Shown: positions 4,402 through 8,315, counted from the first letter of the stretch. The stretch: DNA of 30,487 bases from a virus (IMGVR_UViG_646311924_000014), one strand, 5' to 3'. Made by a program: numbers and translations. The notes: generated from the sequence alone by a model not told the origin.

Positions 4402-4739
4402 GTTTTGCTGATGCGCCGTATCGTCGCTGTATTCCCTCATTAACAGAGACCGCAGCCCGACAGGGAGACTCCTCTGCGCGAGTGTGCGGGGAGAATCAAA
4501 AACGATACGCACCGGGGTTTACCGCGTTAACGGAGCGCGGCGTTGTCCCCTCATGGTCGCTGGTTCGGTGCGATGGTGGAAGAAACCGGACGATGTGTTA
4601 CCTCGCAAGACCTGTTATGTCATGTGTCTGATTTGTGATTTAAGTCGGATAATTGTCGTTGCCATTAAGCAGAGGATTGATGGCCGACAGGGTGGCATTG
4701 TTAGAATAAGACTTATTCTTATCTGTGCCGGGAATGAAA

Positions 4740-5066
4740 ATGAAAAGAAATCTTCCGTTAATTATTTTGTTGTCTTCTCTGGTTATGGGCTGTACGCAAC
4801 ATAAAACAGATATGCCCCGACAGTTGGTTAAGGCATTACCACAATATCCGGCCTATGCAGCGGCAAATTATATAAAGGGACGGGTTGATGTGAAGTTTGA
4901 TATTGGTGCTGATGGTACTGTCACCCGAATTGAGTTTATCCGTTCAGAGCCGCACCATCTGTTTGATGAGCAGGTTGTAAAGGCGATGGCAAAATGGCGA
5001 TTTGAGAAGGACAGGCCGCGTAAAGGCGTGAAGAAAACGTTTATCTTTAGTCCTTCTGCACCCTGA
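4740..5066 (+). CDS. Lipoprotein consisting of a TonB C-terminal-like domain (about 108 aa)
   Basis: Signal peptide with lipobox (LSSLVMGC); mature part LPQYPAYAAANYIKGRVDVKFDIGADGTVTRIEFIRSEPHHLFDEQVVKAMAKWRFE aligns by eye with E. coli TonB CTD ([34 protein letters not shown]...FEREVKNAMRRWRYE); start taken at ATG 4740. Confidence 0.6.
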   Translation: MKRNLPLIILLSSLVMGCTQHKTDMPRQLVKALPQYPAYAAANYIKGRVDVKFDIGADGTVTRIEFIRSEPHHLFDEQVVKAMAKWRFEKDRPRKGVKKTFIFSPSAP

Positions 5067-5439: not shown

Positions 5440-5805
5440 ATGGCTGAGCTTCGTACACTCCAGAGCAGAATCAAAACACTGAATACCCGACGGGTGAATA
5501 TTCTGAAGGGTGAACAGCGTCGTGTCAGTGGCAGTGCACGTGTTTCCCTCAAGCGTCATATCTGGCTCAGGGATGCCGGGCAGTGCTGTCTCTGTGGTCG
5601 TGTGGTTGACCTCTGTGACAGTGAACTCGATCACCGAATTGCACTTCAGTTCGGTGGTGGTAATGAGGAGACGAATCTCTGGACGCTCTGTACCGAATGC
5701 CATCGACAAAAGTCTGCTCGTGAAGCGGCGGGTGGTATGCCGGACCCGACGCTGCCGGAGGTGTCCGGAGGTAGTGGCAGAGCGGACGACATCATCGGAC
5801 TGTAA
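5440..5805 (+). CDS. HNH endonuclease (packaging-associated)
   Basis: CxxC...DHRIALQFGG...N..LCTECH zinc-finger HNH motif; directly upstream of the terminase genes as in HK97-like cos phages. Confidence 0.85.
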   Translation: MAELRTLQSRIKTLNTRRVNILKGEQRRVSGSARVSLKRHIWLRDAGQCCLCGRVVDLCDSELDHRIALQFGGGNEETNLWTLCTECHRQKSAREAAGGMPDPTLPEVSGGSGRADDIIGL

Positions 5806-5895
5806 CCCGAGCGGGGGGGTATCATCCGGCGTAAAAAACGATCGCTCCGGACACCGCGCCCCCTCTCACGCAGAGAAAAAATTCCCGTTTCAGGG

Positions 5896-6021
5896 CAGTT
5901 AACATGTTAACTGGCTGTCCGGGCATTTTTGCGGTTTTTATCTTTATTATTCAGTTTGTTGTGCGAAAAAAATGTTAACTGGCTTTTTCATCAAATGTTA
6001 ACCAGGCAGCAGTTAACATTT
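5896..6021. promoter_or_regulatory. Candidate packaging (cos/terminase-recognition) region with five copies of ATGTTAAC in palindromic arrangement
   Basis: Perfect 18-bp palindrome CAGTTAACATGTTAACTG (5896-5913); AATGTTAACTGG (5971-5982); inverted pair AAATGTTAAC-N9-GTTAACATTT (5993-6021); located between HNH and terS. Confidence 0.35.
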
Positions 6022-6093
6022 GCGGCATGAGACGCCGGGAAAAATGGGCTGAACCATACCCGGCTGAGTGCGTTCTGGACCCGGGAGGAGGCT

Positions 6094-6657
6094 GTGCTGA
6101 CAACGCAAAAACGAAAATTTGCGCTGGCGCTCATGTCCGGGAAAAACAAAACAGCGTCAGCCATTGCCGCTGGTTATTCGGCGAAGACCGCCAGGGTTAA
6201 AGGCTCGCAGCTGGCAAAAGATCCGGAGGTGCTTGCGTTTATAGCCCGTAAACAATGCGAGACGGTGGAGGTGGATGAGGTTCCTGTTTACCGGCAGAAA
6301 AAATCAGAGCAGGAGGATAAACCCCGTCGCCGTGAGGCGGCTGCAATACCACAGCCGGACGAAAACAATCCGGAGATGCCACCGTCCGCGGTGATGTCTC
6401 CTGGTATTGAATATATGGAGGATGGTCTTCCCGATCCGGTGAAAGCGATGGGGCGTCTTCTGGTGGAGAACATTAATACCGACCCCAGGCTGGCGCTGGA
6501 TGCGGCTTATAAGCTGGCGCAGTTCACGCACCATAAAAAAGGGGATGCCGGTAAAAAATCGGCAAAAGGTGACGCGGCGAAAAAAGCGGCTAACCGTTTT
6601 GCGGTGCCACCACCACCCCGCCTGGTGGTGAATAATGATAATGAGGGCAACGGATGA
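6094..6657 (+). CDS. Terminase small subunit
   Basis: GTG start 8 nt after a perfect GGGAGGAGG Shine-Dalgarno; N-terminal HTH pattern (…FALALMSGKNKTASAIAAGYSAKTA…) typical of small terminase; ATGA overlap with terL. Confidence 0.8.
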   Translation: MLTTQKRKFALALMSGKNKTASAIAAGYSAKTARVKGSQLAKDPEVLAFIARKQCETVEVDEVPVYRQKKSEQEDKPRRREAAAIPQPDENNPEMPPSAVMSPGIEYMEDGLPDPVKAMGRLLVENINTDPRLALDAAYKLAQFTHHKKGDAGKKSAKGDAAKKAANRFAVPPPPRLVVNNDNEGNG

Positions 6658-8315
6658 TACCTGTGTGGAGCACGGCCTGCCCGGACTGGGCAGAGCGCCT
6701 GAAAAAGGGGCTGTCGATTATTCCGGCTCCGATTTATCCGGACCAGGCTGCACATGCACTGGCGATTTTTAAACAACTGCGAATTGTGGATGCACCGGGT
6801 AGCCCGACATTCGGGGAGTCCTGTGCACCGTGGGTGTTTGACCTGGTGGCGGCCCTGTTTGGCTCCTACGATGCGCAGACCGGTGTTCGCCATATCAAGG
6901 AAGTGTTTATCCTTATCCCCAAGAAAAACTCGAAGTCCACGCTGGCTGCGGGGATCATGATGACGGCGCTGTTACTGAACTGGCGGCAGGCGGCGGGCTA
7001 CACCATTCTGGCCCCGACCGTGGAGGTGGCGGCTAACGCCTTCAACCCTGCCAGGGATATGGTACGACGGGACGATGATCTGGATGACCTCTGTCAGGTG
7101 CAGACACATATCCGGACCATCACCCATCGGGTGACGGACACCACCCTGAAGGTGGTGGCAGCCGATCCGAATACGGTGTCCGGTATCAAGTCCGTGGGGA
7201 CTCTGATTGATGAACTGTGGCTGTTTGGCAAGCAGTACAAGGCGGAAGACATGCTACGTGAAGCCATCGGCGGGCTTGCCTCCCGTCCGGAAGGGTTTGT
7301 GGTGTATACGACCACCCAGTCGAATGAACCGCCCGCCGGGGTGTTCAGACAGAAACTGCAGTATGCCCGGGATGTGCGCGACGGCAAAATTCATGATCCG
7401 CACTTTCTGCCGGTGATTTTTGAGCATCCTCCTGAAATGGTGGAAAGCGGGGCTCACCTGCTGATGGAAAACCTCGCCATGGTTAACCCGAATCTCGGTT
7501 ATTCGGTGGATGAGGCCTTTCTGTACCGGGAGTACCGTAAAGCCCGGGAGGCTGGTGAGGAAGCATTTCGTGGCTTCATGTCAAAACACGCCAATGTGGA
7601 AATTGGTCTTGCCCTGCGTTCTGACCGCTGGGCAGGGGCGGATTTCTGGGAGCAGCAGGGCAGGCGCGTCAGCCTGGACGATATCCTGCAGCGCGCTGAT
7701 GTGGTGACGGTGGGGATTGACGGCGGGGGCCTGGATGATCTGCTGGGAATGTACGTGACTGGCCGTGACAGGGAAACCCGCGAATGGCTGGGCTGGGGCC
7801 ATGCCTGGGTGCATGAAACCGCGGTGGTCAGACGGAAGAGTGAGGCATCCCGGTTTCAGGATTTTGTGGCCTGTGGAGACATGACGATTGTCCGTCGGGT
7901 CGGGGATGACACGGCGGAAGTGGCGGAGTATGTGCGTCGTATTCATGAGGCTGAGTTACTGGATCATATCGGTATTGACCCGTCAGGTGTGGGGCAGATT
8001 CTGGATTCACTGGCGGAAGCCGGGATCCCCGATGAGAGTGTGGTGGGGATAAGCCAGGGCTGGAAGCTGGGCGGGGCCATCAAAACCACCGAGCGCAAAC
8101 TGGCTGAAGGGGTGCTGATTCACGGTGATCAGCCCCTGATGGCCTGGTGTGTCGGTAATGCCCGGGTGGAGCCTAAAGGTAACGCCATTCTTATCACCAA
8201 ACAGGCCAGCGGACGGGGAAAAATTGACCCGCTGATGGCGCTGTTCAATGCGGTCTCCCTGATGTCCCTTAACCCGGAACCGAAAAAGAAAGAATATGCG
8301 GTTTTTTTCATATAA
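6654..8315 (+). CDS. Terminase large subunit (553 aa)
   Basis: Size, position and ATPase/nuclease organisation of HK97-type TerL (…LIPKKNSKST… P-loop-like segment; acidic nuclease motifs in the C-terminal half). Confidence 0.9.
   Translation: MIPVWSTACPDWAERLKKGLSIIPAPIYPDQAAHALAIFKQLRIVDAPGSPTFGESCAPWVFDLVAALFGSYDAQTGVRHIKEVFILIPKKNSKSTLAAGIMMTALLLNWRQAAGYTILAPTVEVAANAFNPARDMVRRDDDLDDLCQVQTHIRTITHRVTDTTLKVVAADPNTVSGIKSVGTLIDELWLFGKQYKAEDMLREAIGGLASRPEGFVVYTTTQSNEPPAGVFRQKLQYARDVRDGKIHDPHFLPVIFEHPPEMVESGAHLLMENLAMVNPNLGYSVDEAFLYREYRKAREAGEEAFRGFMSKHANVEIGLALRSDRWAGADFWEQQGRRVSLDDILQRADVVTVGIDGGGLDDLLGMYVTGRDRETREWLGWGHAWVHETAVVRRKSEASRFQDFVACGDMTIVRRVGDDTAEVAEYVRRIHEAELLDHIGIDPSGVGQILDSLAEAGIPDESVVGISQGWKLGGAIKTTERKLAEGVLIHGDQPLMAWCVGNARVEPKGNAILITKQASGRGKIDPLMALFNAVSLMSLNPEPKKKEYAVFFI

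What the first reader, a model, noticed from the sequence alone, without database searches (positions are those of the whole stretch)
5896..6021. Cluster of palindromic ATGTTAAC repeats between HNH endonuclease and terS: candidate packaging site
A perfect 18-bp palindrome CAGTTAACATGTTAACTG, a further AATGTTAACTGG and an inverted pair AAATGTTAAC-N9-GTTAACATTT lie in the 290-bp non-coding gap upstream of the small terminase gene. Repeated short motifs here are typical of terminase recognition sites, and the adjacent HNH endonuclease is a known partner in cos cleavage in HK97-like phages.
Basis: partly seen in the sequence, partly recalled or inferred. Interest (0 to 1): 0.4.

Follow-up and report, generated by a model that had tools for sequence, protein, structure and literature searches.

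The report
Terminase address label beside phage cos site
The ATGTTAAC repeats are real and are most likely the sites where this Shiga-toxin-type prophage's small terminase recognises its own DNA, lying 30-155 bp inside the genome end next to the cos cut, an ordinary kind of element that had not been described for this very common phage family.

Summary
Five exact ATGTTAAC half-sites lie at 5898-6019, and nowhere else in the 30.5 kb window. They sit in the 288-bp gap between an HNH endonuclease gene and terS.

The cut itself is not in the repeats. PhageTerm mapping of a 97%-identical phage (Lys8385Vzw) gives a 10-nt 3' cohesive end. That end corresponds to window 5855-5864, 32 bp upstream of the first palindrome. 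The repeats therefore occupy +34 to +155 of the packaged left end, the position of lambda's cosB.

Comparative data support a function as small-terminase (TerS) recognition sites:
- A sister prophage lineage keeps every site position but changes all five sites together to ATGTTTAY. Substitutions in the predicted TerS recognition helix accompany the change, while TerL stays 97% identical.
- A satellite island with no terminase genes keeps all five sites 100% identical, although its spacers are only 67% identical.
- Satellites that encode their own TerS keep the same cut-site core but carry different repeats.

In other Enterobacterales genera a single imperfect palindrome sits at the same offset and contains the terS start codon (ATG TTA AC).

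Verdict: a cosB-like recognition array, a new member of a known kind. TerS binding itself is untested.

The parts
5440..5805 (+). HNH endonuclease gene (121 aa), the presumed partner of TerL in cos cleavage
   Evidence: Pfam PF01844, E 7.5e-7. The same position upstream of cos and terS is seen in relatives from many genera.
5813..5864 (+). Left part of the conserved cos core: G7 run 5813-5819, CGATCG 5839-5844, GGACACCGC 5849-5857
   Evidence: Conserved from E. coli to Serratia, Erwinia and Pantoea, and in satellites. The pattern GGACACCGCNCCCCNTCTCA retrieved more than 120 IMG/VR stretches.
5855..5864 (.). Inferred 10-nt 3' cohesive end CGCGCCCCCT; the top-strand cut lies between 5864 and 5865
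   Evidence: The Lys8385Vzw record ends ...CGCCCCCCCT and starts CTCACGCAGAG. The paper reports cos with 3' cohesive ends, CGCCCCCCCT, by PhageTerm (PMC7946995). Placed on the window by homology, with one substitution at 5858.
5865..5897 (+). Conserved right part of the core (+1..+33), CTCACGCAGAGAAAAAATTCCCG..., with an A6 tract at 5876-5881
   Evidence: 85% identical to satellite L255 and 76% to L170. Present in all lineages whatever their repeat type.
5896..5913 (.). Perfect 18-bp palindrome holding half-sites 1 (5898-5905, minus strand) and 2 (5904-5911, plus strand). It is the homologue of the ribosome-binding-site/start-codon region of terS in short-gap relatives.
   Evidence: In 20 loci from other genera the same offset holds GT(A/T)AAC-ATG-TTAAC, with ATG as the terS start.
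5912..5971 (.). AT-rich spacer (63% AT in a 54% GC window) with T-tracts at +62, +71 and +79 and an A7 tract at +102; probably a bent segment
   Evidence: T-tract positions are kept in five lineages although the spacer sequence is only 61-67% identical.
5949..5961 (.). ATTCA-N4-GTTG element in mid-spacer (+85); a possible weak IHF-like site, unresolved
   Evidence: Kept at +84/+85 in the window, L255, L170 and L298, but not in L299. There is no match to the IHF consensus at one mismatch or fewer in the gap.
5972..5979 (+). Half-site 3 (+108), within AAAATGTTAACTGG
   Evidence: Same offset in L172, L255, L170, L298 and L299.
5993..6021 (.). Inverted pair AAATGTTAAC-N9-GTTAACATTT: half-site 4 (5995-6002, plus strand, +131) and half-site 5 (6012-6019, minus strand, +148)
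   Evidence: The 9-nt spacing is kept in L170 with the changed motif.
6084..6091 (+). Shine-Dalgarno sequence GGAGGAGG of the present terS start
   Evidence: Read directly from the sequence.
6094..6657 (+). terS (187 aa), Terminase_2 family. The predicted N-terminal helix-turn-helix (helices 19-25 and 33-41) is the proposed reader of the half-sites. The start GTGCTGAC is a decayed copy of ATGTTAAC.
   Evidence: Pfam. AlphaFold model with pLDDT above 90 for residues 1-55. Foldseek match to the SF6 TerS DNA-binding domain 4zc3: target-normalised TM 0.85, rmsd 1.6 A. Alignment of homologues.
6654..8315 (+). terL (553 aa), HK97-type large terminase
   Evidence: Pfam PF03354 and PF20441. PDB 6z6d, HK97 TerL, E 1e-9.

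Best explanation
The gap between the HNH gene and terS is the cos site of this lambdoid (Pankowvirus / BP-4795-type) prophage, and it has two parts.

1. Cleavage core. This widely conserved segment runs from about 5813 to 5897. TerL, helped by the HNH protein, cuts here to leave a 10-nt 3' overhang (5855-5864).

2. Recognition array. Immediately inside the left end are five ATGTTAAC half-sites:
   - a divergent overlapping pair at +34/+40;
   - a single site at +108;
   - a convergent pair at +131/+148.
   An AT-rich spacer with phased T-tracts separates the first pair from the rest.

I infer that the N-terminal helix-turn-helix domains of the oligomeric TerS (SF6/SPP1 G1P type) bind these half-sites. 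DNA bent over the spacer would position TerL and HNH on the core for the initial cut and for packaging towards terS. This is the job cosB does in lambda.

Status of each step:
- Shown by sequence and comparison: the repeats, their fixed offsets, and their covariation with the TerS type.
- Shown experimentally only in a close relative, by read-start (PhageTerm) analysis: the cut position.
- Inferred: TerS binding, DNA bending and the order of events.
For: Position. Lys8385Vzw is 97% identical here. Its record starts at the equivalent of 5865 and ends with CGCCCCCCCT, which the authors report as a 3' cohesive end.

Concerted change. Lineage L170/L171 has the same HNH-gap-terS-terL layout, and its TerL is 97% identical. 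It keeps the sites at +34, +40, +108, +132 and +149, but all five read ATGTTTA(T/C). A second TerS with the same substitutions (P0033, L300) also has ATGTTTAY.

TerS residues. The two ATGTTTAY-type TerS share A25E, T32S and V35C relative to four ATGTTAAC-type TerS: the window's, P0014, P0016 and P0034. These residues flank or lie in the predicted recognition helix 33-41.

Selective conservation. Satellite island L255/L296 has no terS, terL or HNH. Its half-sites are 38/38 identical to the window while its spacers are 56/84 identical.

Module swapping. Satellites that encode only a TerS (P0059, P0053) keep the same core but carry AAAAGTTACAC repeats from +32. Another lineage pairs a different TerS with AAAAGTTAAAG repeats from +33/+34.

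DNA-level constraint. In short-gap relatives Leu2 of terS is TTA in 14 of 14, against about 3% TTA among the other Leu codons.

Variants. L298 and L299 have a sixth half-site inserted exactly 10 bp after site 4.

Precedent. TerS has an SF6-type DNA-binding domain. Lambda cosB (three TerS sites next to cosN) is the established precedent (PMC6092414).
Against: - No binding, footprint or packaging assay exists for this TerS or this DNA.
- The cut site rests on one PhageTerm analysis of a relative, transferred here by homology.
- HNH is also diverged between the window and L170 (79% identity). That pair alone cannot separate TerS from HNH as the reader of the sites.
- The satellite TerS P0059 and P0053 share the KTARVKG helix with the window but pair with a different repeat, so helix residues 32 and 35 cannot be the whole specificity code.
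- Short-gap relatives, including the phage FSL SP-016, have a single imperfect palindrome. The extra sites are therefore not universally required.
- HK97 TerS, a different family, binds a single site at +15..+29 that includes an A-tract. An A6 tract conserved at +12..+17 here could be an alternative or additional TerS contact.
- Among 62 close E. coli variants the whole gap is almost invariant, so that comparison does not single out the motifs.
Confidence: 0.75

Rival explanations
1. The repeats are non-functional debris from serial duplication of the 5' end of terS. The ancestral start codon region ATG TTA AC was copied several times when about 190 bp were added.
For: In 20 relatives ATGTTAAC is the terS start itself. 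Each plus-strand copy in the window opens with ATG TTA AC. Copy 4 (ATGTTAACCAGGCAGCAG) resembles the ancestral ATGTTAACAGCGCAGAAG. The present start GTGCTGAC is a decayed copy.
Against: Duplication may well be how the copies arose, but it does not explain how they are maintained:
- 38/38 identity in a satellite whose spacers are 67% identical and which has no terS.
- Concerted change of all five copies in L170 and L300.
- Two copies are inverted, and offsets are fixed to within 1 bp across lineages.
- The TTA codon is fixed in short-gap lineages.
Confidence: 0.07
2. The sites are recognised by another packaging component, the HNH endonuclease or TerL, or by a host factor, rather than by TerS.
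For: HNH differs by 21% between the window and the ATGTTTAY lineage, so it also covaries in that pair. In HK97, HNH gp74 acts at cos.
Against: - Satellites that carry their own repeat type encode a TerS but no HNH or TerL.
- TerL is 97% identical across the motif switch.
- HNH proteins of this class have no known site-specific DNA-binding domain (general knowledge, not tested here).
- The substitutions shared by the ATGTTTAY-type TerS flank or lie in the predicted TerS recognition helix.
Confidence: 0.1
3. The palindromes act at RNA or expression level: hairpins, leader peptides, or an operator controlling terS and late-gene expression.
For: - The ancestral site overlaps the ribosome-binding site and start codon of terS, so TerS binding there could also affect its own expression.
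- Small ORFs start at each plus-strand copy, for example 5904-5978 (24 aa, hydrophobic; read).
- A weak promoter-like match lies on the minus strand at 6001-5972.
Against: - RNA folding of 5865-6110 is not better than shuffles (z -0.98).
- No Rfam match.
- Promoter and terminator matches are at chance level.
- The small ORFs are not conserved: MLTA* in L255, an unrelated 14 aa in L170.
- Satellite L255 keeps the array with no terS downstream.
Confidence: 0.05
4. The 18-bp palindrome is itself the cos cleavage site.
For: Cleavage sites often show twofold symmetry. The palindrome is the most conspicuous feature of the gap.
Against: The mapped cohesive end of the near-identical phage lies 32 bp upstream, in the GC-rich core. 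The palindrome sequence changes between lineages while the core stays constant.
Confidence: 0.03

Closest known systems
Lambda cosB (gpNu1 sites R3, R2, R1 with IHF site I1, next to cosN)
   Same: - Several copies of a short TerS recognition sequence in mixed orientation.
- They lie on the terS side of the cut, within about 30-160 bp of the end.
- A bendable AT-rich segment separates them.
- Specificity varies between related phages while the cut site is shared, and satellites exploit this (PMC6092414).
   Different: - TerS is not a Nu1-family protein (Pfam Terminase_2).
- The end is a 10-nt 3' overhang, not a 12-nt 5' overhang.
- An HNH gene accompanies the terminase.
- No clear IHF consensus is present.
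- The motif is unrelated to the lambda R sites.
HK97 cos (HNH gp74-assisted TerL cleavage, 10-nt 3' overhang, TerS site at +15..+29)
   Same: - HNH gene directly upstream of cos, with terS directly downstream.
- HK97-type TerL (6z6d).
- 10-nt 3' cohesive end.
- Recognition sequence downstream of the cut, and an A-tract near +12..+17.
   Different: HK97 TerS is a different family and binds one 15-bp site by threading DNA through its channel. Here TerS has an SF6-type helix-turn-helix domain, and there are five repeated half-sites spread over 120 bp.
SPP1/SF6 pac region (G1P TerS binding repeated boxes in pacL and pacR on bent DNA)
   Same: Same TerS family and the same fold of the DNA-binding domain. 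Multiple short repeats on AT-rich, probably bent DNA near the cut (SPP1 pac organisation recalled from general knowledge).
   Different: SPP1 and SF6 package by the headful mechanism with imprecise ends. This system gives defined cohesive ends and uses an HNH partner.
cos-carrying satellites (SaPIbov5 with HNH-dependent cos phages; EcCICFT073 with lambda and phi80)
   Same: Satellites found here carry the helper-type cut site. L255 copies the helper's whole recognition array. L165 and L168 bring their own TerS with their own repeats. This parallels the known strategies of cos mimicry and packaging redirection.
   Different: The helper family is different, and redirection would be by a TerS homologue rather than an Rpp-type protein. 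None of these islands has been tested here.

Membership tests
Lambda-type cosB | Lies next to the cohesive-end cut, on the terS side | tested here: met
   The cut is inferred at 5864/5865 from the Lys8385Vzw ends and PhageTerm. The sites are at +34..+155.
Lambda-type cosB | Multiple copies of a TerS-binding repeat | tested here: inconclusive
   Five exact half-sites that covary with the TerS type. Binding itself cannot be tested with these tools.
Lambda-type cosB | TerS of the gpNu1 winged-helix family | tested here: not met
   The only Pfam hit is PF03592 Terminase_2. The fold matches the SF6 TerS DNA-binding domain.
Lambda-type cosB | IHF site between the repeats | tested here: inconclusive
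   No WATCAANNNNTTR match at one mismatch or fewer in the gap. A conserved ATTCA-N4-GTTG at +85 and phased T-tracts are present.
Lambda-type cosB | 12-nt 5' cohesive ends at cosN | tested here: not met
   A 10-nt 3' end is reported for the close relative.
HK97-type HNH-dependent cos | HNH endonuclease gene next to the terminase genes | tested here: met
   PF01844 at 5440-5805.
HK97-type HNH-dependent cos | HK97-family large terminase | tested here: met
   PF03354 and PF20441. The only PDB hit is HK97 TerL 6z6d, E 1e-9.
HK97-type HNH-dependent cos | 10-nt 3' overhang | tested here: met
   Literature value for the 97%-identical Lys8385Vzw, consistent with its record ends. Not measured for this prophage.
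HK97-type HNH-dependent cos | HK97 gp1-type TerS binding a single site at +15..+29 | tested here: not met
   TerS belongs to Terminase_2. The recognition candidates are five repeats at +34..+155. An A6 tract at +12..+17 exists, but its role is unknown.
SPP1/SF6 pac system | G1P-type TerS with an N-terminal helix-turn-helix domain | tested here: met
   Pfam E 1.5e-8. Model residues 1-55 have pLDDT above 90. Target-normalised TM 0.85 to 4zc3.
SPP1/SF6 pac system | Headful packaging without defined cohesive ends | tested here: not met
   PhageTerm classifies the close relative as cos with 3' ends.

The most novel reading that the evidence does not exclude
cos in this widespread phage group is a two-part, exchangeable system. 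A near-universal cleavage core, found from Enterobacterales to Burkholderia phages, is read by TerL and HNH. Next to it lies a short-repeat 'address label' read by the TerS helix-turn-helix domain.

Natural specificity switches already exist. ATGTTAAC, ATGTTTAY, AAGTTACAC and AAGTTAAAG each pair with their own TerS N-terminal domain, and the first switch involves as few as three residues (A25E, T32S, V35C).

Two sister satellites at the same chromosomal site use opposite strategies. One copies the helper's label. The other brings its own TerS and its own label.

The ancestral label overlapped the terS start codon, and in E. coli it was expanded into a five-site array.
Probability: 0.55. Interest if true: 0.6.

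Novelty: new member of a known kind. Interest (0 to 1): 0.5.

Why it matters
This gap is present in 1241 of 5426 complete E. coli genomes, up to 7 copies per genome, and carries no annotation. It belongs to the phages that carry Stx1, Stx2a and Stx2c.

Knowing which bases direct packaging would help explain which prophages and satellites in a Shiga-toxin-producing strain can be packaged by each other's terminases. This is a recognised route for spreading virulence genes among the many defective prophages of E. coli O157 (PMC2669165).

How small terminases recognise DNA is still debated (wrapping versus threading). The natural pairs of TerS variants and matching site variants found here differ at very few residues and bases. 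That makes a recognition code directly testable by gel shift and by swapping residues and sites.

Tried and rejected
- RNA structure. Folding 5865-6110 gives z -0.98 against shuffles, and Rfam gives no match. Rejected.
- Promoter or terminator. Matches are at chance level.
- IHF site. No consensus match at one mismatch or fewer inside the gap. Only a weak conserved ATTCA-N4-GTTG remains.
- Peptide coding. The 24-aa ORF at 5904-5978 is not conserved in L255 or L170.
- Per-column conservation in 62 close IMG/VR variants. The whole gap is nearly invariant, so this is uninformative.
- Contig or record ends as evidence for the cut:
  - L072 starts at T5864 and L178 ends 4 nt past the cut. These are isolate assemblies in which repeats break contigs, so I did not count them.
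  - Burkholderia phage records start at inconsistent offsets, with terS 27-61 nt from the record start. The vB_CB2a record break lies 18 nt to the right of the inferred E. coli cut. Not used.
  - The phi330 record is circularly permuted.
- Literature search for the literal motifs and overhang found nothing relevant beyond PMC7946995. I found no paper describing the repeats.
- SfI/SfV cos belongs to a different terminase lineage.
It was rerun without that sequence.

Full report
OBSERVATION

- the perfect 18-bp palindrome CAGTTAACATGTTAACTG is at 5896-5913;
- AATGTTAACTGG is at 5971-5982;
- AAATGTTAAC-N9-GTTAACATTT is at 5993-6021.

The octamer ATGTTAAC occurs five times on both strands of the window: 5898 (minus), 5904, 5972, 5995 (plus) and 6012 (minus). 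All five lie within 122 bp. Shuffles predict 0.65 copies for the whole 30.5 kb. Copies with one mismatch elsewhere are at chance level.

The gap runs from the stop of an HNH endonuclease gene (5440-5805) to the GTG start of terS (6094) and is 288 bp long. Downstream lie terL (6654-8315), a protease-capsid fusion and the portal gene.

WHAT THE WINDOW IS

The segment is 96-98% identical to Stx1a-, Stx2a- and Stx2c-converting lambdoid phages such as BP-4795, 2851, 1717 and YYZ-2008, genus Pankowvirus. The gap occurs at 80% coverage or more in 1241 of 5426 complete E. coli genomes, up to seven copies per genome. RefSeq annotates nothing under it.

WHERE THE DNA IS CUT

One relative, phage Lys8385Vzw (MT225100), was sequenced from induced particles.
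- Its record begins CTCACGCAGAGAAAAAATTCCCG, which equals window 5865 onward.
- Its record ends ...GGACACCGCCCCCCCT.

The window has CGCGCCCCCT at 5855-5864, one substitution. By homology the top-strand cut lies between 5864 and 5865. The repeats therefore occupy +34 to +155 of the packaged left end.

So the cleavage site is in the same gap but 32 bp outside the coordinates of the finding. A 10-nt 3' overhang next to an HNH gene and an HK97-type TerL (PDB 6z6d, E 1e-9) matches the HNH-dependent cos class described for HK97.

THE SMALL TERMINASE

TerS is not of the HK97 type.
- It hits Pfam Terminase_2 (E 1.5e-8).
- It hits the SF6 small-terminase DNA-binding domain weakly by sequence.
- An AlphaFold model built on 20 homologues gives pLDDT above 90 for residues 1-55, with helices at 4-14, 19-25, 33-41 and 44-55.
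- That domain superposes on the SF6 DNA-binding domain 4zc3 with target-normalised TM 0.85 and rmsd 1.6 A.

Helices 19-25 and 33-41 form the helix-turn-helix.

COMPARISON WITH DISTANT RELATIVES

I used an alignment of TerS homologues to fetch loci from one genome per species. Twenty loci came from Kluyvera, Phytobacter, Serratia, Atlantibacter, Kosakonia, Rouxiella, Enterobacter, Citrobacter, Erwinia, Pantoea, Buttiauxella and others. Salmonella phage FSL SP-016 behaves the same way.

All carry the same core: GGGGGGG...GGACACCGCNCCCCCT|CTCACGCACAGAAAAAATTCCCC. After only 39 nt the core runs into ...GGAGGGTGTAAAC ATG TTA ACA GCG.... In these relatives:
- the ATGTTAAC motif is the terS start codon plus the next five bases;
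- it forms the right half of an imperfect palindrome GT(A/T)AAC-ATG-TTAAC at the same offset (+34/+40) as the window's 18-bp palindrome.

The window's palindrome is therefore the homologue of the start region of terS in short-gap relatives. The E. coli Stx-type lineage has about 190 extra bp. These hold three further copies, a new Shine-Dalgarno sequence, and a start (GTGCTGAC) that is a decayed copy of the motif.

The Leu2 codon is TTA in 14 of 14 short-gap lineages, while TTA is about 3% of the other Leu codons in the same genes. In the window it has become CTG. This points to selection on the DNA sequence TTAAC rather than on the protein.

COVARIATION WITHIN E. COLI

Contigs encoding the 76%-identical TerS P0024 (L170, L171) have the same HNH-gap-terS-terL layout, and their TerL is 97% identical. 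The half-sites sit at +34, +40, +108, +132 and +149, as in the window. All five read ATGTTTA(T/C):
- TATAAACATGTTTATA;
- AAATGTTTATACCC;
- AAATGTTTAC-N9-GTAAACATTT.

A second TerS, P0033 (L300), also has ATGTTTAY. Four TerS variants of 68-100% identity (the window's, P0014, P0016, P0034) keep ATGTTAAC.

The residues that separate the two groups are A25E, T32S and V35C. They lie at the end of helix 2, at the N-cap of helix 3 and in the first turn of helix 3. Both derived half-site types already exist in the short-gap palindrome: its left half, read on the bottom strand, is ATGTTTAC, and its right half is ATGTTAAC.

Variants L298 and L299 add a sixth half-site exactly 10 bp after site 4 and shift site 5 by 10 bp. 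That is one helical turn.

SATELLITES

A scan of IMG/VR for the core pattern found the following.

L255 is the same island as L296, located between tRNA-Pro/yejM and yejO in E. coli S1-CAM-02-A.
- It encodes an integrase, Ash, Icd-like proteins, a D5-type primase, SSB, a capsid protein and a decoration protein.
- It has no terS, terL or HNH.
- Its last feature is the cos core followed by the complete five-site ATGTTAAC array at +34, +40, +108, +132 and +149.
- Against the window the half-sites are 38/38 identical and the spacers 56/84 (67%). At 67% background identity, 38 matches in a row have a probability of about 2e-7 (my arithmetic).

A sister island sits at the same chromosomal site (L165, L297).
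- It has the same integrase type and a DUF4222 protein.
- It carries the cos core, two AAAAGTTACAC repeats starting at +32, its own Terminase_2 TerS (P0059) and a capsid-like protein.
- It has no terL or HNH.

L168 (TerS P0053) has four AAAAGTTACA(C/T) copies, two of them forming an inverted pair.

A low-GC lineage pairs yet another TerS with AAAAGTTAAAG repeats from +33/+34.

Across lineages the core is constant, the first repeat always starts at +32 to +34, and the repeat sequence tracks the TerS N-terminal domain. Some elements bring only a TerS together with their own repeats.

THE SPACER

The stretch +48..+107 is 62-77% AT in a 54% GC genome. T-tracts near +62, +71 and +79 and an A-tract near +102 are kept in position across five lineages, although the sequence diverges. 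This suggests a bent segment.

A clean IHF consensus is absent. A conserved ATTCA-N4-GTTG at +85 is noted but unresolved.

MECHANISM PROPOSED

TerS oligomers bind the half-sites through their helix-turn-helix domains. The divergent pair lies next to the core, and the single site plus the convergent pair lie about 70-110 bp further in. The bent spacer brings these together.

TerL and HNH are thereby positioned on the core and make the staggered cut that leaves the 10-nt 3' end. Packaging then proceeds rightwards into terS.

This is how lambda cosB works, but the protein family differs. The recognition-site layout also contrasts with HK97 itself, where one 15-bp site at +15..+29 is threaded through the TerS ring. 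Binding, bending and the order of events are inferred, not shown.

RIVALS
- Pure duplication debris probably explains how the copies arose. It does not explain the perfect conservation in a satellite without terS, the concerted motif switch, or the fixed offsets.
It is disfavoured by the satellites that encode only a TerS.
- RNA-level or coding roles are not supported.
- The palindrome as the cut site contradicts the mapped ends.

NOVELTY AND SCORE

The cos overhang of this phage type is published for one relative. I found no description of the repeat array, of its covariation with TerS, or of these satellites' packaging modules in the searchable literature.

It is a new member of a known kind, a cosB-like recognition array. 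It occurs in a very common and medically relevant prophage family, and its natural specificity variants make TerS-DNA recognition testable. Interest 0.5. Confidence in the main explanation 0.75.

Noticed in passing
L255 10735-10950; L296 (NZ_CP145707.1 3356008-3367106): An island of about 11 kb at tRNA-Pro, between yejM and yejO. It encodes an integrase, Ash, Icd-like proteins, DUF4222, a D5 primase, SSB, PerC, a major capsid protein and a decoration protein, but no terminase or HNH genes. It ends with the cos core plus the complete window-type five-site ATGTTAAC array. It looks like a satellite that copies its helper's packaging signal. Full-length matches occur in 14 complete E. coli genomes.
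   Followed up: partly
L165-L167, L297 (GCA_012987925.1 AATOBA010000003.1 55090-75578); L168/L169: A sister island at the same chromosomal site, with the same integrase type. It carries the cos core, AAAAGTTACAC repeats, its own Terminase_2 TerS (P0059, 46% identical) and a capsid-like 307-aa protein, but no terL or HNH. A related TerS (P0053) sits next to AlpA with four or five such repeats. These islands seem to bring their own TerS and their own address label.
   Followed up: partly
window ~5813-5819; L002 1546-3004 (LC567822.1): In PPompW prophages an IS110-family element, ISEc20, ends inside the G7 run at the left edge of the cos core. The lysis genes and HNH are missing upstream, while the core and the repeat array are intact.
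   Followed up: no
window 5904-5978: A small ORF starts at half-site 2 and stops at the TAA inside half-site 3: MLTGCPGIFAVFIFIIQFVVRKKC, 24 aa, hydrophobic. It is not conserved in L255 (MLTA*) or L170 (an unrelated 14 aa), so it is probably not a gene.
   Followed up: yes
L298 and L299, +131..+166 from the cut: Two E. coli prophage variants carry a sixth half-site inserted exactly 10 bp after site 4, and the inverted site 5 is shifted by the same 10 bp. This preserves helical phase.
   Followed up: partly
L294/L295 (Burkholderia phage vB_CB2a, PV072763.1 ends): A Burkholderia phage with a 35%-identical TerS keeps ...CTCACGCGCAGAAAATTT|CCCCTTTTCAGG... and a terS start ATG GCT TTA ACA. The record break is 18 nt to the right of the inferred E. 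coli cut. Related records start at different offsets, so their ends look arbitrary.
   Followed up: partly
L168 +60..+115 from the cut: The long gap of this TerS-bearing island is homologous to the window's spacer. It retains one ATGTTAAC (AAAATGTTAACACC) at about the site-3 position, among its own AAAAGTTACAC repeats. It may be a hybrid label.
   Followed up: no
window 4725-5066 and 8379-13107: A TonB C-terminal-domain ORF (113 aa) lies between the Rz lysis gene and HNH. The head genes are ordered terL, then a protease-capsid fusion (645 aa), then a portal protein (859 aa) with a long C-terminal extension.
   Followed up: no
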